Source of the DNA: Fusobacterium sp. JB019
GTDB lineage: Bacteria > Fusobacteriota > Fusobacteriia > Fusobacteriales > Fusobacteriaceae
Direction of reading: 5' to 3'
DNA: 64,000 nt
NCBI GenBank assembly: GCA_030673965.1
Contig: JAUTCN010000005.1
Coordinates: 53,344 to 117,343, forward strand
Of the stretch, positions 34,111 to 64,000 are shown piece after piece; position 1 is the first letter of the stretch; the number at the start of each line of letters is the position of its first letter. The translations under genes were made by a program, and so were the position numbers. Under the pieces are notes generated by a model that was given only the letters and a program-made list of their open reading frames with translations, was not told where the DNA came from and made no database searches.

Positions 34111-34317
34111 TTGTTGTTGTTGAAATTAAAATGTTGAAATAACAAAACTTAAATATGATAATTAAATGGTTGAATAACACATTTAAAAAGTATTTTTGGG
34201 TATACATTGTTTAAATTTGTTTTTATAAATAGTATTTTTGCCAAGAAAAGTTGAAAAAAACGTAAAAATATATTATAATTCTGTTATGTGTACATAAAAT
34301 AACTAGGAGGGTGAAAA

Positions 34318-35856
34318 ATGAAACAGAAAAAGGGTATGTTTAACAGATTTCTTGACGGAGTCGAAGTTGTAGGTAATAAATTACCTCATCCAATGACAAT
34401 TTTTGTTATGTTATCATTAATTGTTGTAGTTGTATCGGCTATTTGTGCTAAAGCAGGAGTTTCAGTAGATTATACTGGAATAAATAGAAAAACTTTTGAA
34501 ATAGGTGCAATTCATTTAAAAGCAAAATCATTGCTTAGTCCAGAAGGAATAAGATATGCATTTAATAGTATGACTAAAAACTTTACAAGTTTTGCTCCTT
34601 TAGGAACAGTATTAGTTGCAATTATAGGGGTTGGAGTAGCAGATGGAAGTGGATTAATACACGCTTGTTTAAGAAAGTTAGTTTTATCGACTTCACCAAA
34701 GCTATTAACAGCAGTTTTAGTTTTTGCAGGGATAATGTCAAATATAGCTTCTGATGCAGGATATGTAGTTTTAGTTCCACTTGGAGCTGTAATATTTATG
34801 TCAGTTGGAAGACATCCATTAGCAGGAATTGCTGCAGCATTTGCAGGAGTTTCAGGAGGATTCTCAGCTAACTTATTAATAGGAACTCTTGATCCACTAT
34901 TAGGAGGGATATCAACAGAGGCTGCTAGAATATTTATTCCGGATTATGTAGTTTTACCAACAGCGAACTGGTACTTCATGGTAGTTTCAACTTTCTTAAT
35001 TACTTTTATAGGTACTTATATTACAGAAAAAATTGTTGAACCAAGACTTGGGGAATATAAAGGAGCGCATAAGGAAGAATTAGGAGAAGTTGGAGATTTA
35101 GAGAAAAAAGGATTAAAACATGCAGGAATATCTTTAGTAATTTATTTAATAATTGTTTTAGCATTAACAGTTCCACAAAATGCAATATTTAGAGAAAATG
35201 GTAGTATTGTTAATTTTATGAGAAATGGTTTATTACCTGGAATTATGTTCTTCTTCATGATACCTGGATATTTTTATGGTAGAGCAGTTGGAACAATAAA
35301 ATCAGATAAAGATCTAGTTAAATTAATAGGAAAAGCATTGAGTGGAATGGGTGGATATATGGCCTTAGTATTTGCTGCTGCTCAATTTATAAAATATTTT
35401 TCTTATACAAACTTAGGAACAATAGTTGCAGTTAAAGGGGCAGATGTTCTTGAAGCAATAGGATTTACAGGTTTCCCATTAATTGTAGGTTTTGTAATAG
35501 TTTCAGCTTTCTTGAATTTATTTATGGGTTCTGCATCAGCTAAATGGGCTATTATGGCACCTGTATTTATTCCAATGTTTATGAAATTAGGATTTACTCC
35601 TGAATTTACTCAAGCAATGTACAGAATAGGAGATTCGTCAACTAATATAATTTCTCCTTTAATGTCATATTTTGCATTTATAGTTGCTTATGCTCAAAAA
35701 TATGATGAAGATAGTGGAATAGGAACTTTAATATCAACAATGTTACCTTATTCTTTATGTTTCTTATTTGCTTGGTTAGCATTATTAATGATTTGGTATT
35801 TCGCAGGATTACCAATTGGACCTGGAGTATCAACTACTATGCAAATGGTATTATAA
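34318..35856 (+). CDS. AbgT family transporter
   Basis: GNKLPHP, NFTSFAPLG, GGFSAN, SASAKWA, YRIGDSSTNIISP. Confidence 0.92.
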   Translation: MKQKKGMFNRFLDGVEVVGNKLPHPMTIFVMLSLIVVVVSAICAKAGVSVDYTGINRKTFEIGAIHLKAKSLLSPEGIRYAFNSMTKNFTSFAPLGTVLVAIIGVGVADGSGLIHACLRKLVLSTSPKLLTAVLVFAGIMSNIASDAGYVVLVPLGAVIFMSVGRHPLAGIAAAFAGVSGGFSANLLIGTLDPLLGGISTEAARIFIPDYVVLPTANWYFMVVSTFLITFIGTYITEKIVEPRLGEYKGAHKEELGEVGDLEKKGLKHAGISLVIYLIIVLALTVPQNAIFRENGSIVNFMRNGLLPGIMFFFMIPGYFYGRAVGTIKSDKDLVKLIGKALSGMGGYMALVFAAAQFIKYFSYTNLGTIVAVKGADVLEAIGFTGFPLIVGFVIVSAFLNLFMGSASAKWAIMAPVFIPMFMKLGFTPEFTQAMYRIGDSSTNIISPLMSYFAFIVAYAQKYDEDSGIGTLISTMLPYSLCFLFAWLALLMIWYFAGLPIGPGVSTTMQMVL

Positions 35857-35881
35857 GAATATAATAAGGAGAGTAGAATAA

Positions 35882-37267
35882 ATGGATATACAAAATGAAG
35901 TTTTAAAATACAAAGATGAAGTAATAAAATCATTACAAGAATCTATTAGAATAAAAAGTGTGGAAGAAGAATCAAAACCAGGAATGCCATTTGGTGAAGG
36001 ACCTGCAAAGGCGTTGAATCATTTTTTAGAAGTTGCAAAAAAATTAGGATTTGAAACAGAAAATTTTGATAATTACGTTGGTCATATTGAGTTTGGTCAA
36101 GGAGAAGAATCTATAGGAATATTAGGTCATGTAGATGTTGTTCCTGAAGGGACTGGTTGGGATTACCCTGCTTATTCAGGCGAGATTGTAAATAATAAAA
36201 TGTATGGAAGAGGAACTTTAGATGATAAAGGACCACTAATGATAGCTCTTTACGCAATGAAAACTTTAAAAGATTTGGGAGTACCAATGAAAAGAAAAGT
36301 TAGAATGATAGTTGGTGCTAATGAAGAAACTAATTGGGGATGTATGAAGCATTATTTTGGTAAATTAAATATGCCTCAACCAGTTATGTCTTTTACTCCT
36401 GATAGTACTTTTCCAGTAACATTTGCTGAAAAAGGTATAATGAGAGGACTTATTAAGATTAAGACAGACTCTAAAGATATTAAATTAGAAGGAGGAAAAG
36501 TATATAATGCTGTTCCTGAAAAAGCAATATTAAGCTTACCAATTTCTTATAAAGAAGAAATTGAAAAAAAATTAGTAGATTATAATGCAGGAAAAGAATA
36601 TAAAATAGAAAGTAAAGTTGAAAAGGATAAAGTGGTATTAACTTCTTTTGGAAAATCTGCTCATGCAGCTCATCCAGAATCAGGATATAATTCATTATCT
36701 TCATTGATGAATTTTATTGATTTATTAAATATTGAAATTTCAGGATTAAAAGAAATGGGAAAATATTTTGCTGAAAATGTAAAAATGGAATATAACGGAA
36801 AATCTGCAGGACTTTTTTATGAGGATGAACCATCTGGAGAAATTACGATGAATTATGGAAAAGCTTTTGTAGAGGATGGGTACGTTGTTGTATCTGTAGA
36901 TACTAGATATCCTGTTACAATTGATTATAATGAGTTGAAAACTAAATTATTAAAATTATTAGAAAAATATAATATGGAATTTGTACCTTTAAAAGAAGAA
37001 GGACCTCTTTATGTTGCTAAAGATAATTTTTTAGTGAAAACACTAACAGATATTTATCAAGAAGTTACAGGAGATCCTGATGGAGAACCTCGTTCTACAG
37101 GAGGAGGAACTTATGCTAAAGCAGTTAAGAATTGTGTCGCATTTGGAGCTTTATTGAAAGGAACTACTGACACAATGCATCAAAAAAATGAATGTATAGA
37201 TTTATCTACTATAGATACTTTATTAAAAATTTATATAGAAGCAATTTATAGATTAGCTAATGGATAA
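35882..37267 (+). CDS. pepV: M20 dipeptidase PepV
   Basis: LGHVDVVP, YGRGTLDDKGP, GANEET, GGGTYAK, HQKNE. Confidence 0.9.
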   Translation: MDIQNEVLKYKDEVIKSLQESIRIKSVEEESKPGMPFGEGPAKALNHFLEVAKKLGFETENFDNYVGHIEFGQGEESIGILGHVDVVPEGTGWDYPAYSGEIVNNKMYGRGTLDDKGPLMIALYAMKTLKDLGVPMKRKVRMIVGANEETNWGCMKHYFGKLNMPQPVMSFTPDSTFPVTFAEKGIMRGLIKIKTDSKDIKLEGGKVYNAVPEKAILSLPISYKEEIEKKLVDYNAGKEYKIESKVEKDKVVLTSFGKSAHAAHPESGYNSLSSLMNFIDLLNIEISGLKEMGKYFAENVKMEYNGKSAGLFYEDEPSGEITMNYGKAFVEDGYVVVSVDTRYPVTIDYNELKTKLLKLLEKYNMEFVPLKEEGPLYVAKDNFLVKTLTDIYQEVTGDPDGEPRSTGGGTYAKAVKNCVAFGALLKGTTDTMHQKNECIDLSTIDTLLKIYIEAIYRLANG

Positions 37268-37295
37268 AAACCCTACATGTTATATATAGTATAAA

Positions 37296-37326
37296 AAAAA
37301 GAGTGGATTACCCTTCCACTCTTTTT
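37296..37326. terminator. Bidirectional terminator between pepV and mnmA
   Basis: AAAAAGAGTGGA-ttaccct-TCCACTCTTTTT. Confidence 0.8.
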
Positions 37327-37351
37327 ACTATTATATGTAATTAATAAATTA

Positions 37352-38416
37352 TTACTCTTTTATAAATCCACTTGCAATAACTTCATAAGAGTCATCATAT
37401 AAAACAACTCCTTGACCAGGTGTAACTGCTCTAACTTGATCTTCTGTAAATATAACCTTTATTTCATTTTCGTTTAAAACTTCTATTTTACATGGGTGGA
37501 ATTTATCTCTAGATCTAGTTTTTGCTTTACAAATCATTCCATTTAAATCATTTAAAGAATTAACTTTTAAAAGGTTGATATCGTCTGCAATAAGAGATGA
37601 TTTGAATAATTCTTCATTACTTCCAAGAATAACTTCATTTTTAGTTCCATCTAATTTTAAAACATAATATGGAGAAGGAGCAGCGATTCCTAATCCTTTT
37701 CTTTGACCTATAGTATAAAAAGCAAGTCCTTTATGTTTTCCTAATATATTTCCTTTTGTATCAACAAAATTTCCAGGCTTAACAATCTTTCCTTTAGTTT
37801 TTTCAATTAAAAATTCTTTTAATTTTCCATCTTCCACAAAGCAAATTTCTTGAGAATCTTTTTTAGAATAAACTCTTACTCCTAAATCTTTTCCTAATTG
37901 TCTAACTTCTTCTTTGCTTATATTTCCAAGGGGAAATATAATATGTTTTAATTTTTCTTTTGACACTTGAGAAAGAAAATAAGCTTGATCTTTTTTTAAG
38001 TCTTCTCCAATCTTTAAAGAGCCATCACTGATATTACTATAGTGACCAGTAGCCATAAAATCAGCACCTTTTTCTAGACAGAAATCAATTAATGCTCCCA
38101 TTTTAATATATTTATTACAAACCATACAAGGATTTGGAGTTCTTCCATTATTATATTCTTGAACAAAATAGTCTACAACTTTATTTGAAAATTCTTCACT
38201 GATATCAAAAATATAGTGTTTAATTCCTAAGTCATCACAAACTTTTTTAGCATCAGCATCAATATCATTTTCAGTAGTCTTCATAGTGACTCCAAAAATA
38301 TTGAATCCTTTTTTCTTTAGAAGATATGCAGTTACAGAACTGTCAACACCTCCACTCATAGCTACAGCAATAGTAGCATTTTTATTTACATTTATATTTT
38401 CTAATATATTTTTCAT
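37352..38416 (-). CDS. mnmA: tRNA 2-thiouridine(34) synthase
   Basis: AMSGGVDSSV, TPNPC..CN..IK, ATGHY, KDQ.YFL, SQEICF, YTIGQRKGLG, TPGQ. Confidence 0.97.
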   Translation of the reverse strand: MKNILENINVNKNATIAVAMSGGVDSSVTAYLLKKKGFNIFGVTMKTTENDIDADAKKVCDDLGIKHYIFDISEEFSNKVVDYFVQEYNNGRTPNPCMVCNKYIKMGALIDFCLEKGADFMATGHYSNISDGSLKIGEDLKKDQAYFLSQVSKEKLKHIIFPLGNISKEEVRQLGKDLGVRVYSKKDSQEICFVEDGKLKEFLIEKTKGKIVKPGNFVDTKGNILGKHKGLAFYTIGQRKGLGIAAPSPYYVLKLDGTKNEVILGSNEELFKSSLIADDINLLKVNSLNDLNGMICKAKTRSRDKFHPCKIEVLNENEIKVIFTEDQVRAVTPGQGVVLYDDSYEVIASGFIKE

Positions 38417-38433
38417 AACCTACCCTCTATTCA

Positions 38434-39048
38434 TTATTTAAATAAAATATATCCTAGAGATACTATTCCAAAAGTAAGAATAATAAAACTAGAAATCTTA
38501 GACAATTTAATAAGAAGTTCATCATTAATAAATCTTTTAAAATAAGTTATTATTTGTACAGTTAAAAACCAAGAAAGAGATCCACTACTTCCAATTCCAA
38601 GAGCAAGTAAAAAATAATTATCTGAATCTCCAACTACACTTAAAAGAGTATAGATGAAAATTATAGTAACAATACCTGCAACATTAAGAAGAGAAAGTAT
38701 TAAACCATAGAAGAAATTTTGAATATAACCATAGTTATAGTCATAATTAGCTGGTTTTTTAATAATAACATCAGTATTTAATTTTTTGATTCCTAGGGCT
38801 ATAAGACAAATTCCAACTAATCCTTTAAAGAAAATTTCATGCTTTAAAATAAATACTTCAGCTTGATTGATAAAGAAAAATGCAAGTAGTCCATAAATGA
38901 CATCTGAAGCAACCATTCCCATCGCTGTAGTATATCCTTCTTTTTTACCTCCTATTAAAGTTTTTTCCATACAATAAAAACCAACAGGACCAAAGGGAAG
39001 AGATAGAATTATACCAGTTATAACACCTTTAAAAAAAGTAATGTTCAC
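38434..39048 (-). CDS. LysE family translocator
   Basis: G..LSLPFGPV, G.....GMVASD..Y; GTG start. Confidence 0.8.
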   Translation of the reverse strand: MNITFFKGVITGIILSLPFGPVGFYCMEKTLIGGKKEGYTTAMGMVASDVIYGLLAFFFINQAEVFILKHEIFFKGLVGICLIALGIKKLNTDVIIKKPANYDYNYGYIQNFFYGLILSLLNVAGIVTIIFIYTLLSVVGDSDNYFLLALGIGSSGSLSWFLTVQIITYFKRFINDELLIKLSKISSFIILTFGIVSLGYILFK

Positions 39049-39074
39049 TATTCCACATCCTTAAATTTATAAAG

Positions 39075-39422
39075 TTATAATTTATTTCCACACTTATGAC
39101 AATAAGTATCCTGAGGATTAACTCTAGCTCCGCAGTGATTACATACAGAGCCATTATTAACTATTCCTTCAATATCGTCATAAGAAACATTTTTAGTTTT
39201 TAAAATATTTTTAATTGATTCATTTTTGAGTTTATAAATACTATTACATTTAGTACAAACAATAAAATATTTTTTTGAAAATTTAAATAACGGTATAAAA
39301 AATAAAGAAAAAGAATTAGCCCTTTCAATTAATTTAGCATTCTCATTAATACAATTAACACATTTAAATTTAATATTTTCAATTATATTTTCTTTGCTTC
39401 CAAATCCCATAAGGAAAAACAT
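39075..39422 (-). CDS. Double zinc-ribbon protein
   Basis: CxxC pairs (CVNC, CTKC, CNHC, CHKC); F.LFFIP.F; start moved to ATG 39422. Confidence 0.8.
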   Translation of the reverse strand: MFFLMGFGSKENIIENIKFKCVNCINENAKLIERANSFSLFFIPLFKFSKKYFIVCTKCNSIYKLKNESIKNILKTKNVSYDDIEGIVNNGSVCNHCGARVNPQDTYCHKCGNKL

Positions 39423-39446
39423 AAGCCCCTCCAAGTAAACTTTAAA

Positions 39447-41252
39447 TTAATTGTTATTTAATTTTAATACAGAAACGAATGCCTCTTGAGGTATTTCAAC
39501 ATTTCCTATTTGTTTCATTCTTTTCTTACCTGCTTTTTGTTTTTCAAGCAGTTTTTTCTTTCTTGTTATATCCCCACCATAACATTTAGCAAGGACATTT
39601 TTTCTATAAGCTTTAATAGTTTCTCTAGCTATAATTTTAGCTCCAAGAGCAGCTTGGATAGGTATTTCAAACTGTTGTCTTGGAATAACTTCTTTTAATC
39701 TTTCACAAATAGCTCTTCCTTTTGTAACAGCATTATCTTTATGTGCTATGAATGAGAAAGCATCAACAATTTCTCCAGAAACTAGAATATCAACTTTTAC
39801 AAGTTCTCCAGCTCTGTATTCAATTAATTCATATTCAAAAGAAGCATAACCTTTAGTTTTAGATTTTAATTTATCATAGAAATCTAAAACAATTTCAGCA
39901 AGAGGTAGTTCATAAGTAATCATGGCTCTTGTTTCATCAATAAAATTCATCCCAACATATATTCCACGTTTTTCTTGGCAAAGTTCCATAACTCCTCCAA
40001 CAAAATCTTTAGGAACAATTATATTTCCTTTGATAAAAGGTTCTTCTATTATGAATTTTCCTTTTCCTGCTTCTGGAAACTCGCAAGGATTATCAATTAT
40101 ATAAGTTGGTTCTCCTTCTTTTGTTATTCTATATTCAACAGATGGTGATGTTGATATTAAATCAATATTGTATTCTCTTCTAAGTCTCTCAACTATAATT
40201 TCCATATGTAAAAGACCTAAGAATCCACATCTAAATCCAAATCCTAAAGCTAAAGAAGTTTCAGGAACAAAATTTAAAGAGGCATCATTTAATTGTAATT
40301 TTTCTAAAGATTCTCTTAAATCTCCGTAGTCATCAGTTGATAAAGGATATATTCCTGCAAAAACCATAGATTGAGCTGGTCTAAATCCTTGAAGTGGTTC
40401 AGAACAAGGTCTTTTAGCATGAGTTATAGTATCTCCAACTCTGGAATCTTTGATAGCTTTTAATCCAGTGATAATATACCCAACAGAACCACTTGAAAGT
40501 TCACCAGTAGATTTCATTGTAGGAGAGAATATTCCACATTCAAGAACTTCAATTTCTTTTCCTGTAGACCAAATTCTAATTTTATCTCCCTTTTTAATAG
40601 TTCCATCTTCTATTTTTATATAAGTTAATACTCCTCTATAGTCATCAAATTTTGAATCAAAGATAAGAGCTTTTAAAGGAGCGTCCTCATCATATTCAGG
40701 AGCTGGAATTCTTTCAACAATGGCTTCTAAAAGTTCTGGAATTCCAAGATTTATTTTAGCAGAAGCAAGGACTGCATCATCAGCTGGAAGCCCAATAATA
40801 TCTTCTATCTCAGCTTTAACTCTTTCAGGTTCTGCTGCTGGTAAATCTATTTTATTAATAACAGGTATAATTTCAAGATCATTTTCTAAAGCTAAATATA
40901 CATTTGCTAAAGTTTGAGCTTCTACACCTTGGGCAGCATCAACTACCAGAAGAGCTCCCTCACAGGCAGATAAAGATCTAGAAACTTCATAAATGAAGTC
41001 AACATGACCAGGAGTATCTATAAGGTTTAATTCATATTCATTTCCATCTTTAGCCTTATAGTATAATGTAACTGCTTGTGCTTTTATTGTAATACCTTTT
41101 TCTCTTTCTAGATCCATAGAATCTAAAAGCTGAGATTTCATGTCTCTTTCACTAACAGCGTGAGTACATTCCATAAGTCTATCAGCTATAGTAGATTTTC
41201 CATGATCTATATGAGCGATTATCGAAAAGTTTCTTTTAAATTTTTGTAACAC
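39447..41252 (-). CDS. lepA: Translation elongation factor 4
   Basis: [42 protein letters not shown]; GTG start at 41252 with GGAGG SD. Confidence 0.98.
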
Positions 41253-41327
41253 TTGAACCTCCAAAAATAAATAATATCGTATATATTATTATAGAAGAAA
41301 ATAGTAAAAAAAGCAATAAATACTTAA

Positions 41328-42557
41328 TTAAAAGGCCCAATTACCTTCAATAAATATATTTTCTTTTTTATTGTTTTTATCTCTTCCAATAATATTTAAA
41401 TCTTCTGTTCCAAACATGAAATCAACATGTGTTAAAGAATCATTAACACCGTTTTTTTCCATAGCAGCAGAATCCATAGTGTCTCCCCCTTTAATACAGC
41501 TAGGGTAGGCTTGCCCAATTGCTAAATGACAAGATGCATTTTCATCAAATAAAGTATTAAAAAATAAAATATTTGAATTTGAAATAGGAGAATTAAATGG
41601 TACAAGAGCAATTTCTCCTAAATATTTAGAACCTTCGTCAGTATTAATAAGATTTTTTAAAGCTTCTTTTCCTTTAGCTGCTTTAAAATCAATGATTCTT
41701 CCATCTTTAAATGTAAGTGAGAAATTTTCAATTAAAGTTCCTCCATAGTTAAGTGGTTTAGATGCATAAACAATACCATTAACTCCATATTTATGAGGAA
41801 GAGAAAAAACTTCTTCAGTTGGAATATTGGCAACAAATTCGATATTATTTTTTGTAATATCTTTTCCAGATGCCCAAATATGATTTTTAGGCATTTTAAC
41901 TTTTAAATTAGTACCTAAAGAATTTGTGATTATAAGTTCTTCAAATTGTTTATTATTTAAATAATCCATTTTTTCTTTTAAATTATTTAAATGATCTTTC
42001 CAAGTTTTTATAGGATCAGGAGTATCTGCTTTTACAGAATAAATAATTGCATCCCATAATTTTTGTACAGCTTTTTCATCATCACAGTCTTTAAATATTT
42101 TTTTTGCCCAAGCAACAGTTGGTACAGATAAAATATTCCATTGTATTTCATTTCCCATAACTTTATCATAATAAGGTTTAAACTTAATGTTTCTAGTTTT
42201 TTGAGAAATAGCAATTTTTTCAGGATCGATTCCCTTTAAAAGTTCAGGATCATTTGCAGCAATACTTAAGAAAGCAGCTCCTTTATTTGCATAAAACATA
42301 AGAGATTCTAATTGCCATTCAGGCATAGATTCAAATAAAGATTTGTTTTTGTGAGTGAAATCCATTTTTTTACAGAAATCATCAGACCAATGAACAATAA
42401 CTTCACTAGCTCCTATTTTATAAGCTTCTTCTACTAATTTTCTAGTGAAATCAGCAGTTTCAACAGGAGACATAATTACTAAACATTGATTTTGTTGTAA
42501 ATTAATTCCAATTTTTAAAGCAAGTTCAACATAGTTTTCTAAAAATTTTTTATCCAA
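41328..42557 (-). CDS. M29 aminopeptidase (AmpS/PepS)
   Basis: NIPTEEVF, LGEIALVP, TLFDENASCHLAIG, NDSLTHVDFM; TTG start at 42557 with GGAGG SD. Confidence 0.92.
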   Translation of the reverse strand: MDKKFLENYVELALKIGINLQQNQCLVIMSPVETADFTRKLVEEAYKIGASEVIVHWSDDFCKKMDFTHKNKSLFESMPEWQLESLMFYANKGAAFLSIAANDPELLKGIDPEKIAISQKTRNIKFKPYYDKVMGNEIQWNILSVPTVAWAKKIFKDCDDEKAVQKLWDAIIYSVKADTPDPIKTWKDHLNNLKEKMDYLNNKQFEELIITNSLGTNLKVKMPKNHIWASGKDITKNNIEFVANIPTEEVFSLPHKYGVNGIVYASKPLNYGGTLIENFSLTFKDGRIIDFKAAKGKEALKNLINTDEGSKYLGEIALVPFNSPISNSNILFFNTLFDENASCHLAIGQAYPSCIKGGDTMDSAAMEKNGVNDSLTHVDFMFGTEDLNIIGRDKNNKKENIFIEGNWAF

Positions 42558-42737
42558 TTTAATTACCTCCAAAAAGTAAATTATAATTCTTATAGTAATT
42601 TTATCACAAAAAACCTTAAAATAACATAAGTTACTGAACAAAATTTTATTTTAATGAAATTTATTGTAATAGTACAATTTTTCTCCTTAATCTTGATAAG
42701 ATTAATAAATTATGTTATAGTTTATTTGTTGTGTAAT

Positions 42738-42810
42738 ACTACTAGGGGAGCGAGAGCTGAGAATTACCCTTAATTACCTGTTCTAGATAATGCTAGCGGA
42801 GGGAAGTGGT
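42738..42810 (+). ncRNA. TPP riboswitch aptamer
   Basis: ACTACT-AGGGGAGC...GCTGAGA...ACCC...ACCTG..CTAGATAATGCTAGCG.AGGGA-AGTGGT; P1 pairs; upstream of tenA. Confidence 0.93.
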
Positions 42811-42820
42811 GAAGTTTTAT

Positions 42821-42871
42821 ATCATTTTCTTATTTATACGTTGAGTATATATTTTAGGGAATGATTTTTTT
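42821..42871 (+). terminator. Riboswitch expression-platform terminator
   Basis: ATCATTTTCT pairs with AGGGAATGAT (G-U allowed), followed by a T tract before the tenA SD. Confidence 0.55.
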
Positions 42872-42887
42872 ATTTTAGGAGGAAATA

Positions 42888-43544: not shown

Positions 43545-43554
43545 GAGAGAAAAA

Positions 43555-54658: not shown

Positions 54659-54668
54659 TTTTTCTCTC

Positions 54669-55325: not shown

Positions 55326-55402
55326 TATTTCCTCCTAAAATAAAAAAATCATTCCCTAAAATATATACTCAACGTATAAATAAGAAAATGATATAAAACT
55401 TC

Positions 55403-55475
55403 ACCACTTCCCTCCGCTAGCATTATCTAGAACAGGTAATTAAGGGTAATTCTCAGCTCTCGCTCCCCTAGTAGT
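55403..55475 (-). ncRNA. TPP riboswitch (mirror copy)
   Basis: Reverse complement of 42738..42810. Confidence 0.9.
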
Positions 55476-55655
55476 ATTACACAACAAATAAACTATAACA
55501 TAATTTATTAATCTTATCAAGATTAAGGAGAAAAATTGTACTATTACAATAAATTTCATTAAAATAAAATTTTGTTCAGTAACTTATGTTATTTTAAGGT
55601 TTTTTGTGATAAAATTACTATAAGAATTATAATTTACTTTTTGGAGGTAATTAAA

Positions 55656-56885
55656 TTGGATAAAAAATTTTTAGAAAACTATGTTGAACTTGCTTTAAAA
55701 ATTGGAATTAATTTACAACAAAATCAATGTTTAGTAATTATGTCTCCTGTTGAAACTGCTGATTTCACTAGAAAATTAGTAGAAGAAGCTTATAAAATAG
55801 GAGCTAGTGAAGTTATTGTTCATTGGTCTGATGATTTCTGTAAAAAAATGGATTTCACTCACAAAAACAAATCTTTATTTGAATCTATGCCTGAATGGCA
55901 ATTAGAATCTCTTATGTTTTATGCAAATAAAGGAGCTGCTTTCTTAAGTATTGCTGCAAATGATCCTGAACTTTTAAAGGGAATCGATCCTGAAAAAATT
56001 GCTATTTCTCAAAAAACTAGAAACATTAAGTTTAAACCTTATTATGATAAAGTTATGGGAAATGAAATACAATGGAATATTTTATCTGTACCAACTGTTG
56101 CTTGGGCAAAAAAAATATTTAAAGACTGTGATGATGAAAAAGCTGTACAAAAATTATGGGATGCAATTATTTATTCTGTAAAAGCAGATACTCCTGATCC
56201 TATAAAAACTTGGAAAGATCATTTAAATAATTTAAAAGAAAAAATGGATTATTTAAATAATAAACAATTTGAAGAACTTATAATCACAAATTCTTTAGGT
56301 ACTAATTTAAAAGTTAAAATGCCTAAAAATCATATTTGGGCATCTGGAAAAGATATTACAAAAAATAATATCGAATTTGTTGCCAATATTCCAACTGAAG
56401 AAGTTTTTTCTCTTCCTCATAAATATGGAGTTAATGGTATTGTTTATGCATCTAAACCACTTAACTATGGAGGAACTTTAATTGAAAATTTCTCACTTAC
56501 ATTTAAAGATGGAAGAATCATTGATTTTAAAGCAGCTAAAGGAAAAGAAGCTTTAAAAAATCTTATTAATACTGACGAAGGTTCTAAATATTTAGGAGAA
56601 ATTGCTCTTGTACCATTTAATTCTCCTATTTCAAATTCAAATATTTTATTTTTTAATACTTTATTTGATGAAAATGCATCTTGTCATTTAGCAATTGGGC
56701 AAGCCTACCCTAGCTGTATTAAAGGGGGAGACACTATGGATTCTGCTGCTATGGAAAAAAACGGTGTTAATGATTCTTTAACACATGTTGATTTCATGTT
56801 TGGAACAGAAGATTTAAATATTATTGGAAGAGATAAAAACAATAAAAAAGAAAATATATTTATTGAAGGTAATTGGGCCTTTTAA
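55656..56885 (+). CDS. M29 aminopeptidase (mirror copy)
   Basis: Identical translation to 41328..42557. Confidence 0.9.
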   Translation: MDKKFLENYVELALKIGINLQQNQCLVIMSPVETADFTRKLVEEAYKIGASEVIVHWSDDFCKKMDFTHKNKSLFESMPEWQLESLMFYANKGAAFLSIAANDPELLKGIDPEKIAISQKTRNIKFKPYYDKVMGNEIQWNILSVPTVAWAKKIFKDCDDEKAVQKLWDAIIYSVKADTPDPIKTWKDHLNNLKEKMDYLNNKQFEELIITNSLGTNLKVKMPKNHIWASGKDITKNNIEFVANIPTEEVFSLPHKYGVNGIVYASKPLNYGGTLIENFSLTFKDGRIIDFKAAKGKEALKNLINTDEGSKYLGEIALVPFNSPISNSNILFFNTLFDENASCHLAIGQAYPSCIKGGDTMDSAAMEKNGVNDSLTHVDFMFGTEDLNIIGRDKNNKKENIFIEGNWAF

Positions 56886-56960
56886 TTAAGTATTTATTGC
56901 TTTTTTTACTATTTTCTTCTATAATAATATATACGATATTATTTATTTTTGGAGGTTCAA

Positions 56961-58766
56961 GTGTTACAAAAATTTAAAAGAAACTTTTCGATAATCGCTC
57001 ATATAGATCATGGAAAATCTACTATAGCTGATAGACTTATGGAATGTACTCACGCTGTTAGTGAAAGAGACATGAAATCTCAGCTTTTAGATTCTATGGA
57101 TCTAGAAAGAGAAAAAGGTATTACAATAAAAGCACAAGCAGTTACATTATACTATAAGGCTAAAGATGGAAATGAATATGAATTAAACCTTATAGATACT
57201 CCTGGTCATGTTGACTTCATTTATGAAGTTTCTAGATCTTTATCTGCCTGTGAGGGAGCTCTTCTGGTAGTTGATGCTGCCCAAGGTGTAGAAGCTCAAA
57301 CTTTAGCAAATGTATATTTAGCTTTAGAAAATGATCTTGAAATTATACCTGTTATTAATAAAATAGATTTACCAGCAGCAGAACCTGAAAGAGTTAAAGC
57401 TGAGATAGAAGATATTATTGGGCTTCCAGCTGATGATGCAGTCCTTGCTTCTGCTAAAATAAATCTTGGAATTCCAGAACTTTTAGAAGCCATTGTTGAA
57501 AGAATTCCAGCTCCTGAATATGATGAGGACGCTCCTTTAAAAGCTCTTATCTTTGATTCAAAATTTGATGACTATAGAGGAGTATTAACTTATATAAAAA
57601 TAGAAGATGGAACTATTAAAAAGGGAGATAAAATTAGAATTTGGTCTACAGGAAAAGAAATTGAAGTTCTTGAATGTGGAATATTCTCTCCTACAATGAA
57701 ATCTACTGGTGAACTTTCAAGTGGTTCTGTTGGGTATATTATCACTGGATTAAAAGCTATCAAAGATTCCAGAGTTGGAGATACTATAACTCATGCTAAA
57801 AGACCTTGTTCTGAACCACTTCAAGGATTTAGACCAGCTCAATCTATGGTTTTTGCAGGAATATATCCTTTATCAACTGATGACTACGGAGATTTAAGAG
57901 AATCTTTAGAAAAATTACAATTAAATGATGCCTCTTTAAATTTTGTTCCTGAAACTTCTTTAGCTTTAGGATTTGGATTTAGATGTGGATTCTTAGGTCT
58001 TTTACATATGGAAATTATAGTTGAGAGACTTAGAAGAGAATACAATATTGATTTAATATCAACATCACCATCTGTTGAATATAGAATAACAAAAGAAGGA
58101 GAACCAACTTATATAATTGATAATCCTTGCGAGTTTCCAGAAGCAGGAAAAGGAAAATTCATAATAGAAGAACCTTTTATCAAAGGAAATATAATTGTTC
58201 CTAAAGATTTTGTTGGAGGAGTTATGGAACTTTGCCAAGAAAAACGTGGAATATATGTTGGGATGAATTTTATTGATGAAACAAGAGCCATGATTACTTA
58301 TGAACTACCTCTTGCTGAAATTGTTTTAGATTTCTATGATAAATTAAAATCTAAAACTAAAGGTTATGCTTCTTTTGAATATGAATTAATTGAATACAGA
58401 GCTGGAGAACTTGTAAAAGTTGATATTCTAGTTTCTGGAGAAATTGTTGATGCTTTCTCATTCATAGCACATAAAGATAATGCTGTTACAAAAGGAAGAG
58501 CTATTTGTGAAAGATTAAAAGAAGTTATTCCAAGACAACAGTTTGAAATACCTATCCAAGCTGCTCTTGGAGCTAAAATTATAGCTAGAGAAACTATTAA
58601 AGCTTATAGAAAAAATGTCCTTGCTAAATGTTATGGTGGGGATATAACAAGAAAGAAAAAACTGCTTGAAAAACAAAAAGCAGGTAAGAAAAGAATGAAA
58701 CAAATAGGAAATGTTGAAATACCTCAAGAGGCATTCGTTTCTGTATTAAAATTAAATAACAATTAA
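56961..58766 (+). CDS. lepA: EF-4 (mirror copy)
   Basis: Identical translation to 39447..41252. Confidence 0.95.
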
Positions 58767-58790
58767 TTTAAAGTTTACTTGGAGGGGCTT

Positions 58791-59138
58791 ATGTTTTTCC
58801 TTATGGGATTTGGAAGCAAAGAAAATATAATTGAAAATATTAAATTTAAATGTGTTAATTGTATTAATGAGAATGCTAAATTAATTGAAAGGGCTAATTC
58901 TTTTTCTTTATTTTTTATACCGTTATTTAAATTTTCAAAAAAATATTTTATTGTTTGTACTAAATGTAATAGTATTTATAAACTCAAAAATGAATCAATT
59001 AAAAATATTTTAAAAACTAAAAATGTTTCTTATGACGATATTGAAGGAATAGTTAATAATGGCTCTGTATGTAATCACTGCGGAGCTAGAGTTAATCCTC
59101 AGGATACTTATTGTCATAAGTGTGGAAATAAATTATAA
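58791..59138 (+). CDS. Double zinc-ribbon protein (mirror copy)
   Basis: Identical translation to 39075..39422. Confidence 0.8.
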   Translation: MFFLMGFGSKENIIENIKFKCVNCINENAKLIERANSFSLFFIPLFKFSKKYFIVCTKCNSIYKLKNESIKNILKTKNVSYDDIEGIVNNGSVCNHCGARVNPQDTYCHKCGNKL

Positions 59139-59164
59139 CTTTATAAATTTAAGGATGTGGAATA

Positions 59165-59779
59165 GTGAACATTACTTTTTTTAAAGGTGTTATAACTGGT
59201 ATAATTCTATCTCTTCCCTTTGGTCCTGTTGGTTTTTATTGTATGGAAAAAACTTTAATAGGAGGTAAAAAAGAAGGATATACTACAGCGATGGGAATGG
59301 TTGCTTCAGATGTCATTTATGGACTACTTGCATTTTTCTTTATCAATCAAGCTGAAGTATTTATTTTAAAGCATGAAATTTTCTTTAAAGGATTAGTTGG
59401 AATTTGTCTTATAGCCCTAGGAATCAAAAAATTAAATACTGATGTTATTATTAAAAAACCAGCTAATTATGACTATAACTATGGTTATATTCAAAATTTC
59501 TTCTATGGTTTAATACTTTCTCTTCTTAATGTTGCAGGTATTGTTACTATAATTTTCATCTATACTCTTTTAAGTGTAGTTGGAGATTCAGATAATTATT
59601 TTTTACTTGCTCTTGGAATTGGAAGTAGTGGATCTCTTTCTTGGTTTTTAACTGTACAAATAATAACTTATTTTAAAAGATTTATTAATGATGAACTTCT
59701 TATTAAATTGTCTAAGATTTCTAGTTTTATTATTCTTACTTTTGGAATAGTATCTCTAGGATATATTTTATTTAAATAA
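59165..59779 (+). CDS. LysE family translocator (mirror copy)
   Basis: Identical translation to 38434..39048. Confidence 0.8.
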   Translation: MNITFFKGVITGIILSLPFGPVGFYCMEKTLIGGKKEGYTTAMGMVASDVIYGLLAFFFINQAEVFILKHEIFFKGLVGICLIALGIKKLNTDVIIKKPANYDYNYGYIQNFFYGLILSLLNVAGIVTIIFIYTLLSVVGDSDNYFLLALGIGSSGSLSWFLTVQIITYFKRFINDELLIKLSKISSFIILTFGIVSLGYILFK

Positions 59780-59796
59780 TGAATAGAGGGTAGGTT

Positions 59797-60861
59797 ATGA
59801 AAAATATATTAGAAAATATAAATGTAAATAAAAATGCTACTATTGCTGTAGCTATGAGTGGAGGTGTTGACAGTTCTGTAACTGCATATCTTCTAAAGAA
59901 AAAAGGATTCAATATTTTTGGAGTCACTATGAAGACTACTGAAAATGATATTGATGCTGATGCTAAAAAAGTTTGTGATGACTTAGGAATTAAACACTAT
60001 ATTTTTGATATCAGTGAAGAATTTTCAAATAAAGTTGTAGACTATTTTGTTCAAGAATATAATAATGGAAGAACTCCAAATCCTTGTATGGTTTGTAATA
60101 AATATATTAAAATGGGAGCATTAATTGATTTCTGTCTAGAAAAAGGTGCTGATTTTATGGCTACTGGTCACTATAGTAATATCAGTGATGGCTCTTTAAA
60201 GATTGGAGAAGACTTAAAAAAAGATCAAGCTTATTTTCTTTCTCAAGTGTCAAAAGAAAAATTAAAACATATTATATTTCCCCTTGGAAATATAAGCAAA
60301 GAAGAAGTTAGACAATTAGGAAAAGATTTAGGAGTAAGAGTTTATTCTAAAAAAGATTCTCAAGAAATTTGCTTTGTGGAAGATGGAAAATTAAAAGAAT
60401 TTTTAATTGAAAAAACTAAAGGAAAGATTGTTAAGCCTGGAAATTTTGTTGATACAAAAGGAAATATATTAGGAAAACATAAAGGACTTGCTTTTTATAC
60501 TATAGGTCAAAGAAAAGGATTAGGAATCGCTGCTCCTTCTCCATATTATGTTTTAAAATTAGATGGAACTAAAAATGAAGTTATTCTTGGAAGTAATGAA
60601 GAATTATTCAAATCATCTCTTATTGCAGACGATATCAACCTTTTAAAAGTTAATTCTTTAAATGATTTAAATGGAATGATTTGTAAAGCAAAAACTAGAT
60701 CTAGAGATAAATTCCACCCATGTAAAATAGAAGTTTTAAACGAAAATGAAATAAAGGTTATATTTACAGAAGATCAAGTTAGAGCAGTTACACCTGGTCA
60801 AGGAGTTGTTTTATATGATGACTCTTATGAAGTTATTGCAAGTGGATTTATAAAAGAGTAA
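59797..60861 (+). CDS. mnmA: MnmA (mirror copy)
   Basis: Identical translation to 37352..38416. Confidence 0.95.
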   Translation: MKNILENINVNKNATIAVAMSGGVDSSVTAYLLKKKGFNIFGVTMKTTENDIDADAKKVCDDLGIKHYIFDISEEFSNKVVDYFVQEYNNGRTPNPCMVCNKYIKMGALIDFCLEKGADFMATGHYSNISDGSLKIGEDLKKDQAYFLSQVSKEKLKHIIFPLGNISKEEVRQLGKDLGVRVYSKKDSQEICFVEDGKLKEFLIEKTKGKIVKPGNFVDTKGNILGKHKGLAFYTIGQRKGLGIAAPSPYYVLKLDGTKNEVILGSNEELFKSSLIADDINLLKVNSLNDLNGMICKAKTRSRDKFHPCKIEVLNENEIKVIFTEDQVRAVTPGQGVVLYDDSYEVIASGFIKE

Positions 60862-60945
60862 TAATTTATTAATTACATATAATAGTAAAAAGAGTGGAAG
60901 GGTAATCCACTCTTTTTTTTATACTATATATAACATGTAGGGTTT

Positions 60946-62331
60946 TTATCCATTAGCTAATCTATAAATTGCTTCTATATAAATTTTTAATAAAGTATCT
61001 ATAGTAGATAAATCTATACATTCATTTTTTTGATGCATTGTGTCAGTAGTTCCTTTCAATAAAGCTCCAAATGCGACACAATTCTTAACTGCTTTAGCAT
61101 AAGTTCCTCCTCCTGTAGAACGAGGTTCTCCATCAGGATCTCCTGTAACTTCTTGATAAATATCTGTTAGTGTTTTCACTAAAAAATTATCTTTAGCAAC
61201 ATAAAGAGGTCCTTCTTCTTTTAAAGGTACAAATTCCATATTATATTTTTCTAATAATTTTAATAATTTAGTTTTCAACTCATTATAATCAATTGTAACA
61301 GGATATCTAGTATCTACAGATACAACAACGTACCCATCCTCTACAAAAGCTTTTCCATAATTCATCGTAATTTCTCCAGATGGTTCATCCTCATAAAAAA
61401 GTCCTGCAGATTTTCCGTTATATTCCATTTTTACATTTTCAGCAAAATATTTTCCCATTTCTTTTAATCCTGAAATTTCAATATTTAATAAATCAATAAA
61501 ATTCATCAATGAAGATAATGAATTATATCCTGATTCTGGATGAGCTGCATGAGCAGATTTTCCAAAAGAAGTTAATACCACTTTATCCTTTTCAACTTTA
61601 CTTTCTATTTTATATTCTTTTCCTGCATTATAATCTACTAATTTTTTTTCAATTTCTTCTTTATAAGAAATTGGTAAGCTTAATATTGCTTTTTCAGGAA
61701 CAGCATTATATACTTTTCCTCCTTCTAATTTAATATCTTTAGAGTCTGTCTTAATCTTAATAAGTCCTCTCATTATACCTTTTTCAGCAAATGTTACTGG
61801 AAAAGTACTATCAGGAGTAAAAGACATAACTGGTTGAGGCATATTTAATTTACCAAAATAATGCTTCATACATCCCCAATTAGTTTCTTCATTAGCACCA
61901 ACTATCATTCTAACTTTTCTTTTCATTGGTACTCCCAAATCTTTTAAAGTTTTCATTGCGTAAAGAGCTATCATTAGTGGTCCTTTATCATCTAAAGTTC
62001 CTCTTCCATACATTTTATTATTTACAATCTCGCCTGAATAAGCAGGGTAATCCCAACCAGTCCCTTCAGGAACAACATCTACATGACCTAATATTCCTAT
62101 AGATTCTTCTCCTTGACCAAACTCAATATGACCAACGTAATTATCAAAATTTTCTGTTTCAAATCCTAATTTTTTTGCAACTTCTAAAAAATGATTCAAC
62201 GCCTTTGCAGGTCCTTCACCAAATGGCATTCCTGGTTTTGATTCTTCTTCCACACTTTTTATTCTAATAGATTCTTGTAATGATTTTATTACTTCATCTT
62301 TGTATTTTAAAACTTCATTTTGTATATCCAT
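60946..62331 (-). CDS. pepV: PepV (mirror copy)
   Basis: Identical translation to 35882..37267. Confidence 0.88.
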   Translation of the reverse strand: MDIQNEVLKYKDEVIKSLQESIRIKSVEEESKPGMPFGEGPAKALNHFLEVAKKLGFETENFDNYVGHIEFGQGEESIGILGHVDVVPEGTGWDYPAYSGEIVNNKMYGRGTLDDKGPLMIALYAMKTLKDLGVPMKRKVRMIVGANEETNWGCMKHYFGKLNMPQPVMSFTPDSTFPVTFAEKGIMRGLIKIKTDSKDIKLEGGKVYNAVPEKAILSLPISYKEEIEKKLVDYNAGKEYKIESKVEKDKVVLTSFGKSAHAAHPESGYNSLSSLMNFIDLLNIEISGLKEMGKYFAENVKMEYNGKSAGLFYEDEPSGEITMNYGKAFVEDGYVVVSVDTRYPVTIDYNELKTKLLKLLEKYNMEFVPLKEEGPLYVAKDNFLVKTLTDIYQEVTGDPDGEPRSTGGGTYAKAVKNCVAFGALLKGTTDTMHQKNECIDLSTIDTLLKIYIEAIYRLANG

Positions 62332-62356
62332 TTATTCTACTCTCCTTATTATATTC

Positions 62357-63895
62357 TTATAATACCATTTGCATAGTAGTTGATACTCCAGGTCCAATTG
62401 GTAATCCTGCGAAATACCAAATCATTAATAATGCTAACCAAGCAAATAAGAAACATAAAGAATAAGGTAACATTGTTGATATTAAAGTTCCTATTCCACT
62501 ATCTTCATCATATTTTTGAGCATAAGCAACTATAAATGCAAAATATGACATTAAAGGAGAAATTATATTAGTTGACGAATCTCCTATTCTGTACATTGCT
62601 TGAGTAAATTCAGGAGTAAATCCTAATTTCATAAACATTGGAATAAATACAGGTGCCATAATAGCCCATTTAGCTGATGCAGAACCCATAAATAAATTCA
62701 AGAAAGCTGAAACTATTACAAAACCTACAATTAATGGGAAACCTGTAAATCCTATTGCTTCAAGAACATCTGCCCCTTTAACTGCAACTATTGTTCCTAA
62801 GTTTGTATAAGAAAAATATTTTATAAATTGAGCAGCAGCAAATACTAAGGCCATATATCCACCCATTCCACTCAATGCTTTTCCTATTAATTTAACTAGA
62901 TCTTTATCTGATTTTATTGTTCCAACTGCTCTACCATAAAAATATCCAGGTATCATGAAGAAGAACATAATTCCAGGTAATAAACCATTTCTCATAAAAT
63001 TAACAATACTACCATTTTCTCTAAATATTGCATTTTGTGGAACTGTTAATGCTAAAACAATTATTAAATAAATTACTAAAGATATTCCTGCATGTTTTAA
63101 TCCTTTTTTCTCTAAATCTCCAACTTCTCCTAATTCTTCCTTATGCGCTCCTTTATATTCCCCAAGTCTTGGTTCAACAATTTTTTCTGTAATATAAGTA
63201 CCTATAAAAGTAATTAAGAAAGTTGAAACTACCATGAAGTACCAGTTCGCTGTTGGTAAAACTACATAATCCGGAATAAATATTCTAGCAGCCTCTGTTG
63301 ATATCCCTCCTAATAGTGGATCAAGAGTTCCTATTAATAAGTTAGCTGAGAATCCTCCTGAAACTCCTGCAAATGCTGCAGCAATTCCTGCTAATGGATG
63401 TCTTCCAACTGACATAAATATTACAGCTCCAAGTGGAACTAAAACTACATATCCTGCATCAGAAGCTATATTTGACATTATCCCTGCAAAAACTAAAACT
63501 GCTGTTAATAGCTTTGGTGAAGTCGATAAAACTAACTTTCTTAAACAAGCGTGTATTAATCCACTTCCATCTGCTACTCCAACCCCTATAATTGCAACTA
63601 ATACTGTTCCTAAAGGAGCAAAACTTGTAAAGTTTTTAGTCATACTATTAAATGCATATCTTATTCCTTCTGGACTAAGCAATGATTTTGCTTTTAAATG
63701 AATTGCACCTATTTCAAAAGTTTTTCTATTTATTCCAGTATAATCTACTGAAACTCCTGCTTTAGCACAAATAGCCGATACAACTACAACAATTAATGAT
63801 AACATAACAAAAATTGTCATTGGATGAGGTAATTTATTACCTACAACTTCGACTCCGTCAAGAAATCTGTTAAACATACCCTTTTTCTGTTTCAT
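62357..63895 (-). CDS. AbgT family transporter (mirror copy)
   Basis: Identical translation to 34318..35856. Confidence 0.9.
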   Translation of the reverse strand: MKQKKGMFNRFLDGVEVVGNKLPHPMTIFVMLSLIVVVVSAICAKAGVSVDYTGINRKTFEIGAIHLKAKSLLSPEGIRYAFNSMTKNFTSFAPLGTVLVAIIGVGVADGSGLIHACLRKLVLSTSPKLLTAVLVFAGIMSNIASDAGYVVLVPLGAVIFMSVGRHPLAGIAAAFAGVSGGFSANLLIGTLDPLLGGISTEAARIFIPDYVVLPTANWYFMVVSTFLITFIGTYITEKIVEPRLGEYKGAHKEELGEVGDLEKKGLKHAGISLVIYLIIVLALTVPQNAIFRENGSIVNFMRNGLLPGIMFFFMIPGYFYGRAVGTIKSDKDLVKLIGKALSGMGGYMALVFAAAQFIKYFSYTNLGTIVAVKGADVLEAIGFTGFPLIVGFVIVSAFLNLFMGSASAKWAIMAPVFIPMFMKLGFTPEFTQAMYRIGDSSTNIISPLMSYFAFIVAYAQKYDEDSGIGTLISTMLPYSLCFLFAWLALLMIWYFAGLPIGPGVSTTMQMVL

Positions 63896-64000
63896 TTTTC
63901 ACCCTCCTAGTTATTTTATGTACACATAACAGAATTATAATATATTTTTACGTTTTTTTCAACTTTTCTTGGCAAAAATACTATTTATAAAAACAAATTT

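What the first reader, a model, noticed from the sequence alone, without database searches (positions are those of the whole stretch)
34213..64000. At least 29.8-kb perfect palindrome folding at a terminator hairpin
Seen: the whole right part of the window is self-complementary about 49106|49107 with no spacer. All ORFs are mirrored with identical proteins, including normally single-copy lepA and mnmA, and the symmetry runs to the window edge. I did not compare every base. The axis is the loop of the hairpin after the HU gene. Established: long spacer-less palindromes are unstable in bacteria. Such patterns arise from fold-back reads (nanopore, MDA), self-complementary assembly-graph edges, read-through of covalently closed hairpin telomeres, or inversion-duplications seeded at short palindromes. 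Inference: an artefact is most likely. A hairpin-ended linear replicon or real inverted amplification would be remarkable for this lineage. No protelomerase is visible in the window.
Basis: partly seen in the sequence, partly recalled or inferred. Interest (0 to 1): 0.7.

Follow-up and report, generated by a model that had tools for sequence, protein, structure and literature searches.

The report
Mirror-image contig made by mis-assembly
The 29.8-kb perfect palindrome is really in the sequence, but it is almost certainly an assembly or library artefact: the contig turns back on itself at a natural 34-bp terminator hairpin, whereas the real chromosome continues into a glutamine synthetase gene.

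Summary
Window 34213..64000 is an exact reverse-complement palindrome about 49106|49107, with 14,894 bp per arm and 0 mismatches. Its left limit is only the mirror of the window's right edge.

The axis is the centre of a natural, perfect 34-bp palindrome (49090..49123). This is the terminator hairpin after an HU gene in ordinary chromosomal DNA of a marine Fusobacterium-like bacterium.

Five independent contigs of the same species (97.3–99.9% identical) match the window up to exactly 49123. They then continue into a convergent type III glutamine synthetase gene (glnN), and a sister lineage has the same layout. That sequence is absent from the window.

One metagenome run carries the identical strain. 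In it, and in seven other runs, the hairpin's outer flank is the glnN side. The HU arm is never at double depth.

No k-mer of 35 bases or fewer can tell the fold from the real junction, and k=31 contigs stop inside the hairpin.

No telomere resolvase, phage or plasmid genes are present.

Verdict: the fold is not a real genome feature (about 93%). A real, very recent inverted duplication in the source strain alone cannot be excluded without that assembly's raw reads (about 5%).

The parts
34213..49089 (+). Left arm: genuine chromosomal sequence (abgT, pepV-like dipeptidase, mnmA, LysE-family transporter, zinc-ribbon protein, lepA, M29 peptidase, tenA, ABC transporter with two NMT1/SsuA-like binding proteins, ald, HU). 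Its left limit is only the mirror of the window edge.
   Evidence: Gene calls and family matches. Collinear with independent contigs L081-L090 at 97.3-100% identity, and with L092/L093 at 87-91%.
48801..49082 (+). HU/IHF-family DNA-binding protein gene (93 aa), the last real gene before the axis.
   Evidence: NCBIfam IHF/HU matches. Pfam Bac_DNA_binding on the identical protein in other contigs. Relatives are named 'HU family DNA-binding protein', Fusobacterium sp. IOR10 / MFO224.
49090..49123 (.). Natural perfect 34-bp spacer-less palindrome AAAAGAGGATTGAATATATATTCAATCCTCTTTT. It is probably a two-way intrinsic terminator between the convergent HU and glnN genes, and it is the pivot of the fold.
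   Evidence: Present unchanged in L082, L085, L090 and L091. L089 has one stem mismatch and L093 has an asymmetric loop. RNA fold energy is -20.3 kcal/mol. Terminator-like on both strands. Unique in the window.
49124..64000 (-). Artefactual part: the reverse complement of 34213..49089, placed where the real genome has AATATAAAGTTTTATTTTATTC... leading into glnN, asnA and a sigma-54 activator.
   Evidence: 0 mismatches to the left arm. All read-through contigs stop matching the window at 49123. The glnN-side sequence is absent from the window. Loose ends sit at 49123 and 49090 in eight runs.
32226..32259 (.). Internal control: a second perfect 34-bp palindrome (AAAAAAAGACAGAGATTAATCTCTGTCTTTTTTT) between another convergent gene pair. 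The window's assembly passes it normally.
   Evidence: Palindrome scan. k=31 Logan contigs of X1, X3 and X4 stop at 32255, and the 34-bp core is a separate unitig at about 2x depth, the same behaviour as at 49119.

Best explanation
The palindrome is a product of sequencing or assembly, not of the organism.

The real chromosome reads: ald, HU, a 34-bp perfect palindromic terminator (49090..49123), then the convergent genes glnN (type III glutamine synthetase), asnA and a sigma-54 activator.

The 34-bp hairpin is its own reverse complement. Any process that relies on 35 bases or fewer of identity can therefore enter it from the HU side and leave on the reverse complement of the HU side. In a de Bruijn graph this is a 'self-mirror' edge. 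The contig then runs back along the strand it came from, which gives an exact mirror with no spacer.

The sub-mechanism is inferred, not shown:
- About 60%: a graph-level mis-join in a multi-k short-read assembler. The low-k stages of SPAdes (k = 21, 33) or MEGAHIT (k = 21, 29) permit it. It may have been favoured because the forward path is ambiguous here: the terminator and its glnN-side flank occur a second time in the genome (locus 'b').
- About 30%: fold-back (snap-back) chimeric molecules made in vitro at the hairpin, by whole-genome amplification or long-read library preparation, and then assembled faithfully.

Shown here: the exact mirror, the natural hairpin, the true continuation in other assemblies, and single-copy arm depth in a sample with the same strain. 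Inferred: which step of the source pipeline made the fold.
For: (1) The mirror is exact: 14,894 bp per arm with 0 mismatches.
(2) The pivot is a natural 34-bp perfect palindrome found unchanged in other assemblies.
(3) L082 (ENA), L085 (NCBI MAG GCA_030673935.1, 99.89% identical), L089 (Logan) and L090+L091 (JGI) all align to the window up to exactly 49123, then continue AATATAAAGTTTTATTTT... into a 705-aa GSIII gene. The sister lineage L093 has the same HU-terminator-glnN layout.
(4) That continuation is absent from the whole window.
(5) In eight runs the only flanks of the perfect hairpin are HU and the glnN side. In X8 the glnN flank runs 235 nt. X4 holds a contig 100% identical to the window over 8,218 bp (L081).
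(6) Depth of the HU arm against the flank of a second locus ('b'): X1 121/131, X3 9.7/9.8, X4 78/116, X5 about 350/429, X6 15.5/13.3, X8 19/21.4. It is never 2x.
(7) By arithmetic on the coordinates, a fold-specific word must span 49089 to 49124, so k must be at least 36. Every k-mer of 35 or fewer in the fold also exists in the true genome.
(8) k=31 contigs break inside this hairpin (L081, L083, L084, L086-L088) and read through only where a strain has an imperfect hairpin (L089). They behave the same way at the control palindrome.
(9) Published descriptions exist of self-mirror edges and palindromic unitigs that SPAdes and MEGAHIT output whole, and of unsafe unitigs at coverage gaps (PMC9528984); of exactly mirrored contigs removed as artefacts from single-cell assemblies (10.1101/2023.06.06.543983); and of palindromic long reads after amplification (10.1101/173872).
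Against: The raw reads of the window's own assembly were not available. All runs served were k=31 contigs, and no 31-mer can tell the fold from the true junction.

The same assembly passed another perfect 34-bp palindrome correctly (32226..32259). So the palindrome alone does not force a fold, and an extra local cause has to be assumed, such as a coverage gap, the 'b' repeat or chimeric reads.

The depth comparison assumes that locus 'b' is single-copy. It also uses other samples, one with the identical strain, rather than the source library itself.
Confidence: 0.93

Rival explanations
1. A real, very recent inverted chromosome duplication in the source strain only. A double-strand break on the glnN side was resected, the 3' strand folded back at the 34-bp palindrome and primed synthesis, and replication of the hairpin-capped end gave a head-to-head duplication of the HU arm.
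For: The fold is centred exactly on a pre-existing palindrome, as in the E. coli rearrangement described by Darmon et al. (PMC3315005). Large inverted repeats do exist in a few bacterial chromosomes (PMC5345009). Zero divergence fits a very young event. The source reads were not examined.
Against: The same strain in X4 (100% identical over 8.2 kb) has the glnN-side flank on the perfect hairpin and no doubling of arm depth. All other assemblies have the normal junction. In E. coli such duplications were seen only without SbcCD and RecA. The natural large inverted repeats have spacers of 1-8.8 kb and 2x read depth. A spacer-less palindrome of 29.8 kb or more that duplicates lepA and mnmA would be expected to be unstable (PMC3315005 and PMC4245961; general knowledge).
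Confidence: 0.05
2. A covalently closed hairpin telomere of a linear replicon (as in Borrelia, phage N15 or the Agrobacterium linear chromosome), read around its tip.
For: Reading through a hairpin telomere would give a spacer-less perfect palindrome. Several assemblies, including the 569-kb contig of isolate MFO224, end at or in this hairpin.
Against: Five contigs of the same species and one of a sister lineage read straight through the hairpin into housekeeping genes, so the site is internal. The contig ends are explained by k=31 and the palindrome: the same break occurs at the internal control palindrome. No telomere resolvase, phage or plasmid gene was found among the non-shadow ORFs of 100 aa or more in the window. 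There is no similarity to plasmids or phages.
Confidence: 0.01

Closest known systems
Palindromic ('hairpin') contigs from self-mirror edges in de Bruijn graph assemblers (Rahman & Medvedev 2022, PMC9528984); mirrored contigs filtered out of single-cell assemblies (10.1101/2023.06.06.543983)
   Same: The second half mirrors the first exactly. The pivot is a short exact palindrome longer than k. Assemblers differ in whether they stop in the palindrome (here the Logan k=31 contigs stop) or push through it.
   Different: The published cases concern true palindromes being split, or small mirrored contigs. Here a false mirror of 29.8 kb or more sits inside a contig that is probably 204,898 bp long, and the assembler used is unknown.
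Inverted chimeric (palindromic) molecules from multiple displacement amplification or long-read libraries (Pacasus, 10.1101/173872; PMC9984789)
   Same: They give fold-back sequences with no spacer, made by template switching or snap-back priming.
   Different: Those chimeras arise at many positions and are usually a minority of reads. Whether the source DNA was amplified or long-read sequenced is unknown.
Palindrome-induced inverted chromosome duplication in E. coli sbcCD recA mutants (Darmon et al. 2010, PMC3315005)
   Same: A head-to-head duplication centred on a pre-existing palindrome.
   Different: There it was a 246-bp interrupted palindrome in a mutant background, proven by Southern blots and hairpin-capped fragments. 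Here a same-strain sample shows the normal junction and 1x depth.
Large inverted repeats at the replication terminus of Lactobacillus delbrueckii ssp. bulgaricus (El Kafsi et al. 2017, PMC5345009)
   Same: Arms of tens of kilobases in a circular bacterial chromosome.
   Different: Those have a unique centre of 1-8.8 kb, lie at the terminus and include dif, show 2x read depth, are conserved among strains and carry decaying genes. None of this is seen here.

Membership tests
Assembly or library fold-back artefact | The two arms are exact mirrors with no divergence | tested here: met
   0 mismatches in 14,894 pairs.
Assembly or library fold-back artefact | The pivot is a short natural palindrome, and the fold contains no word of assembler size that is absent from the true genome | tested here: met
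   A 34-bp perfect palindrome at 49090..49123 is present in other assemblies. Fold-specific words need k of 36 or more (coordinate arithmetic). k=31 contigs break there.
Assembly or library fold-back artefact | Independent data continue into unique sequence beyond the pivot | tested here: met
   L082, L085, L089, L090, L091 and L093 go on into glnN. The same flank appears as loose ends in eight runs.
Assembly or library fold-back artefact | The arms are at single-copy depth | tested here: met
   Depth of the HU arm against the locus-b flank is 0.67-1.17 in X1, X3, X4, X5, X6 and X8. X4 holds the identical strain. These are not the source library itself.
Assembly or library fold-back artefact | The source library has no reads, or only rare chimeric reads, spanning the fold | not testable with these tools
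   Only k=31 contigs were served, and no raw or long-read run could be listed.
Hairpin telomere of a linear replicon | The site is a physical end of the replicon | tested here: not met
   Contigs read through it into glnN, asnA and a sigma-54 activator.
Hairpin telomere of a linear replicon | A telomere resolvase (ResT/TelN/TelA type) is encoded | tested here: not met
   None among the non-shadow ORFs of 100 aa or more in the window. The rest of the genome was not available.
Palindrome-seeded inverted chromosome duplication | Centred on a pre-existing palindrome | tested here: met
   The axis is the centre of the natural 34-bp palindrome.
Palindrome-seeded inverted chromosome duplication | Duplicated arms at 2x copy number, and loss or displacement of the sequence beyond the palindrome | tested here: not met
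   Depth is 1x and the glnN flank is attached to the perfect hairpin in the same-strain sample X4 and in seven other runs. The source reads were not tested.
Palindrome-seeded inverted chromosome duplication | A second (distal) junction | not testable with these tools
   The mirror runs off the window edge at 64000.
Terminus-region large inverted repeats (L. bulgaricus type) | A unique central region between the repeats (1-8.8 kb) | tested here: not met
   The spacer is 0 bp, against PMC5345009.
Terminus-region large inverted repeats (L. bulgaricus type) | Located at the replication terminus and including dif | not tested
   No dif model was available for this lineage. GC skew in the window follows gene strand, and its peak at the axis is produced by the mirror itself.

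The most novel reading that the evidence does not exclude
The source strain alone carries a real, newly formed, spacer-less inverted duplication of at least 29.8 kb, possibly 2 x 102 kb if the whole 204,898-bp contig is mirrored. It would have been made by fold-back priming at a 34-bp terminator palindrome in a wild marine Fusobacterium-like bacterium.
Probability: 0.04. Interest if true: 0.75.

Novelty: not a real feature. Interest (0 to 1): 0.07.

Why it matters
As biology it does not matter: the genome is ordinary here. It matters for data quality. The deposited contig duplicates at least 14.9 kb of genes in reverse, including the normally single-copy lepA and mnmA. This inflates genome size and duplication or contamination estimates. 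It hides the true HU-glnN adjacency. It also creates a false GC-skew turning point at the axis that could be mistaken for a replication origin or terminus. The case also shows that perfect terminator palindromes a little longer than the usual k values are places where assemblers either break or fold.

Tried and rejected
I worked from the loose ends on the window instead.
2. I repeated it on 31000-32760. The zero depth to the right of 32298 there is probably the same filter removing the contig, so I do not treat it as evidence.
3. The lepA exact look-ups failed because my ORF used an upstream TTG start, giving 605 aa against 601 aa in relatives.
4. Searches for Nanopore or PacBio runs returned nothing, so no molecule-level test of the fold was possible.
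5. k-mer word shares cannot tell the fold from the real junction, because no 31-mer is fold-specific. I rejected them as evidence either way.
6. The plasmid and phage searches gave only an lepA match to a chromosome-sized Fusobacterium record filed among the plasmids.
7. The hairpin-telomere reading was considered because many contigs, including a 569-kb isolate contig, end at this hairpin. It was rejected because other contigs read through, and because the same breaks occur at an internal control palindrome.
8. The origin of the third flank 'b' (...TATGGGGATATTAGCAAATTAAGAGATTAA) could not be traced. It is absent from the window and from all 98 loci fetched at that point.
Full report
**Observation**

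A base-by-base test shows that window 34213..64000 is an exact reverse-complement palindrome about 49106|49107. Each arm is 14,894 bp, and there are no mismatches and no spacer. Shifting the axis by one to six bases gives about 10,000 mismatches. The mirror reaches base 64000. The stated start, 34213, is therefore just the reflection of the window's right edge, and the true extent is unknown. The axis lies in the TATATA centre of a hairpin directly after a 93-aa HU-family gene at 48801..49082.

**What the DNA is**

The arm carries ordinary chromosomal genes:
- an AbgT-family transporter and a PepV-like dipeptidase
- mnmA, a LysE-family transporter, a zinc-ribbon protein, lepA and an M29 peptidase
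- tenA, and an ABC transporter with two NMT1/SsuA-like binding proteins
- alanine dehydrogenase and HU

The 34 kb to the left are also ordinary: a P-type ATPase, transporters, a PTS, three GH4 glycosidases, M20 peptidases, regulators and FabK. None of the non-shadow ORFs of 100 aa or more is a telomere resolvase, phage or plasmid gene. GC content is about 28%.

Identical or near-identical proteins are labelled Fusobacterium sp. (IOR10, MFO224 and MAGs). The window's own proteins sit on an NCBI contig of 204,898 bp. The arm has no similarity to plasmids or phages, apart from lepA matching a chromosome-sized Fusobacterium record.

**What really follows the HU gene**

Contigs that encode exactly the same HU protein were fetched, and a metagenome scan for the HU end plus the hairpin was run. 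Five contigs from at least four other samples or assemblies read through the hairpin:
- L082 (ENA)
- L085 (NCBI MAG GCA_030673935.1)
- L089 (Logan)
- L090 and L091 (both JGI 3300019764)

All five read: HU stop, AAATGTA, AAAAGAGGATTGAATATATATTCAATCCTCTTTT, AATATAAAGTTTTATTTTATTC... This leads into a convergent 705-aa type III glutamine synthetase (glnN). In L082 it is followed by asnA and a sigma-54 activator.

By BLAST these contigs are 97.3-99.9% identical to the window. Every one of them stops matching at exactly 49123, the last base of the 34-bp perfect palindrome 49090..49123. A sister lineage about 87% identical (L093) has the same HU-terminator-glnN layout, with an asymmetric loop in the hairpin. 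The glnN-side sequence is nowhere in the window.

The natural element is therefore a 34-bp palindrome. As RNA it folds at -20.3 kcal/mol and looks terminator-like on both strands. The window departs from the real genome at 49124.

**Read-level evidence**

Only Logan k=31 contigs were available. Laid on the axis, contigs of eight runs (X1-X6, X8, X10) never follow the fold. HU-side contigs stop at 49119 or 49103-49107. The loose ends show the glnN-side flank: AATATAAAGTT after 49123, and its mirror before 49090. In X8 this flank runs for 235 nt.

A third flank, 'b' (...TATGGGGATATTAGCAAATTAAGAGATTAA), is joined to ATTAAAAATGTA, then the hairpin with one mismatch, then the same glnN-side flank. 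From where the contigs end, the mismatch is in the loop at about 49104, and the two loci share sequence beyond the hairpin. This is inference. So the perfect hairpin has just two kinds of neighbour, HU and the glnN side. The economical arrangement is HU-hairpin-glnN. The alternative needs two giant palindromes, HU-hairpin-HU' and glnN'-hairpin-glnN.

Depth of the HU arm against the 'b' flank:

| Run | HU arm | 'b' flank |
|---|---|---|
| X1 | 121 | 131 |
| X3 | 9.7 | 9.8 |
| X4 | 78 | 116 |
| X5 | about 350 | 429 |
| X6 | 15.5 | 13.3 |
| X8 | 19 | 21.4 |

The arm is never at 2x. X4's contig L081 is 100% identical to the window over 8,218 bp, so this includes the same strain.

**Why contigs break or fold here**

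A word that is specific to the fold must span from 49089 or earlier to 49124 or later, so it needs at least 36 bases. Every k-mer of 35 or fewer in the fold also occurs in the true genome on one strand or the other (arithmetic on the coordinates). This explains three things:
- the k-mer index reports 100% of words in many runs without supporting the fold;
- k=31 contigs stop inside the hairpin (L081, L083, L084, L086-L088);
- the one Logan contig that reads through (L089) comes from a strain with a stem mismatch.

An internal control confirms this. A second perfect 34-bp palindrome lies at 32226..32259, between another convergent gene pair. There the k=31 contigs of X1, X3 and X4 stop 4 bp before its end, and the core appears as a 34-bp unitig at about 2x depth. 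The window reads through it normally.

**Mechanism**

Rahman and Medvedev (PMC9528984) describe self-mirror edges and palindromic unitigs. SPAdes and MEGAHIT output them whole, while ABySS and sometimes minia split them, and unitigs become unsafe where coverage is imperfect. Exactly mirrored contigs have been seen and discarded as artefacts in single-cell assemblies (10.1101/2023.06.06.543983). Whole-genome amplification and long-read libraries also create palindromic molecules (10.1101/173872 and PMC9984789).

My preferred reading (inference) is a graph-level fold at a low-k stage of a multi-k assembler. It may have been helped by the fact that the forward path is a two-copy repeat (locus 'b'), which the control palindrome lacks. 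Fold-back chimeric molecules are the second option. Either way the fold is not part of the genome.

**Rivals**

*Real inverted duplication seeded by the palindrome.* This is known in E. coli, but only without SbcCD and RecA, and it was proven there by Southern blots (PMC3315005). The natural large inverted repeats of L. bulgaricus have spacers of 1-8.8 kb, lie at the terminus, and show 2x depth (PMC5345009). None of this fits here. However, the source library itself was not examined, so I leave about 5% for a strain-private event.

*Hairpin telomere.* This is contradicted by the read-through contigs and by the absence of a resolvase in the window (about 1%).

**Verdict**

The palindrome is not a real feature. 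Its practical importance is as an error in a public record: genes are duplicated, the glnN adjacency is lost, and a false GC-skew peak appears at the axis.

Noticed in passing
window 32226..32259: A second perfect 34-bp spacer-less palindrome (AAAAAAAGACAGAGATTAATCTCTGTCTTTTTTT) lies between the convergent genes 31336..32226(+) and 32266..32898(-). Further perfect palindromes of 30 bp (1800..1829) and 28 bp (9056..9083) are present. Long perfect palindromic terminators seem to be a habit of this genome, and they break k=31 assemblies.
   Followed up: yes
outside the window; seen as loose ends at window 49078 (before) and 49135 (behind): A second genomic locus 'b' (a gene ending ...YGDISKLRD*, DNA ...TATGGGGATATTAGCAAATTAAGAGATTAA) is followed by the same ATTAAAAATGTA and the hairpin with one loop mismatch. 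It is then followed by at least 11 nt of the same glnN-side flank, and perhaps about 235 nt judging from the 2x depth of that flank in X8. It is present at about 1x in seven of the eight runs laid (X1-X6, X8; not seen in X10). It is a duplicated terminator module of unknown extent.
   Followed up: partly
L092 (GCA_044987705.1, JBJDSC010000002.1, 569,293 bp), locus end: The 569-kb contig of isolate Fusobacterium sp. MFO224 ends 3 bp after the HU stop codon, so that isolate assembly also breaks at this terminator. Its last bases (GATTAGCAG) differ from the window (GATTAAAAATG).
   Followed up: partly
window 15078..18236 (-): A 1,052-aa protein has an N-terminal NUDIX domain, a PLD-like nuclease domain and a ResIII/DEAD helicase. 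It matches PADLOC type IV methyl-directed restriction enzyme models (E = 4e-86), and its NUDIX part matches candidate PDC-S07. The neighbouring 404-aa ORF (19109..20323) has no family match.
   Followed up: partly
whole arm, e.g. window 34213..44212: Nearly the same strain (0.95-0.99 of 31-mers) turns up in sponge, algae, mollusc, wastewater, bioreactor and marine sediment metagenomes from several unrelated studies. Oyster and landfill runs hold about two-thirds of the words over 10 kb, and 0.8-1.0 over the 1-kb axis stretch. This is an unusually wide spread for one strain, and cross-contamination was not examined.
   Followed up: no
window 20537..24409 and 34318..37267; 13708..15036, 25191..26495, 26511..27836: There are paralogous gene sets: two AbgT-family transporters, each followed by M20-family peptidase genes, and three family-4 glycoside hydrolases.
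   Followed up: no
window 48001..50000: Cumulative GC skew peaks exactly at the axis. This is a by-product of the mirror and could be misread as a replication origin or terminus.
   Followed up: yes
window 39447..41264 (-): The mechanical ORF for lepA starts at an upstream TTG (605 aa), while relatives are annotated at 601 aa. The exact 605-aa sequence is not in the protein collection.
   Followed up: partly
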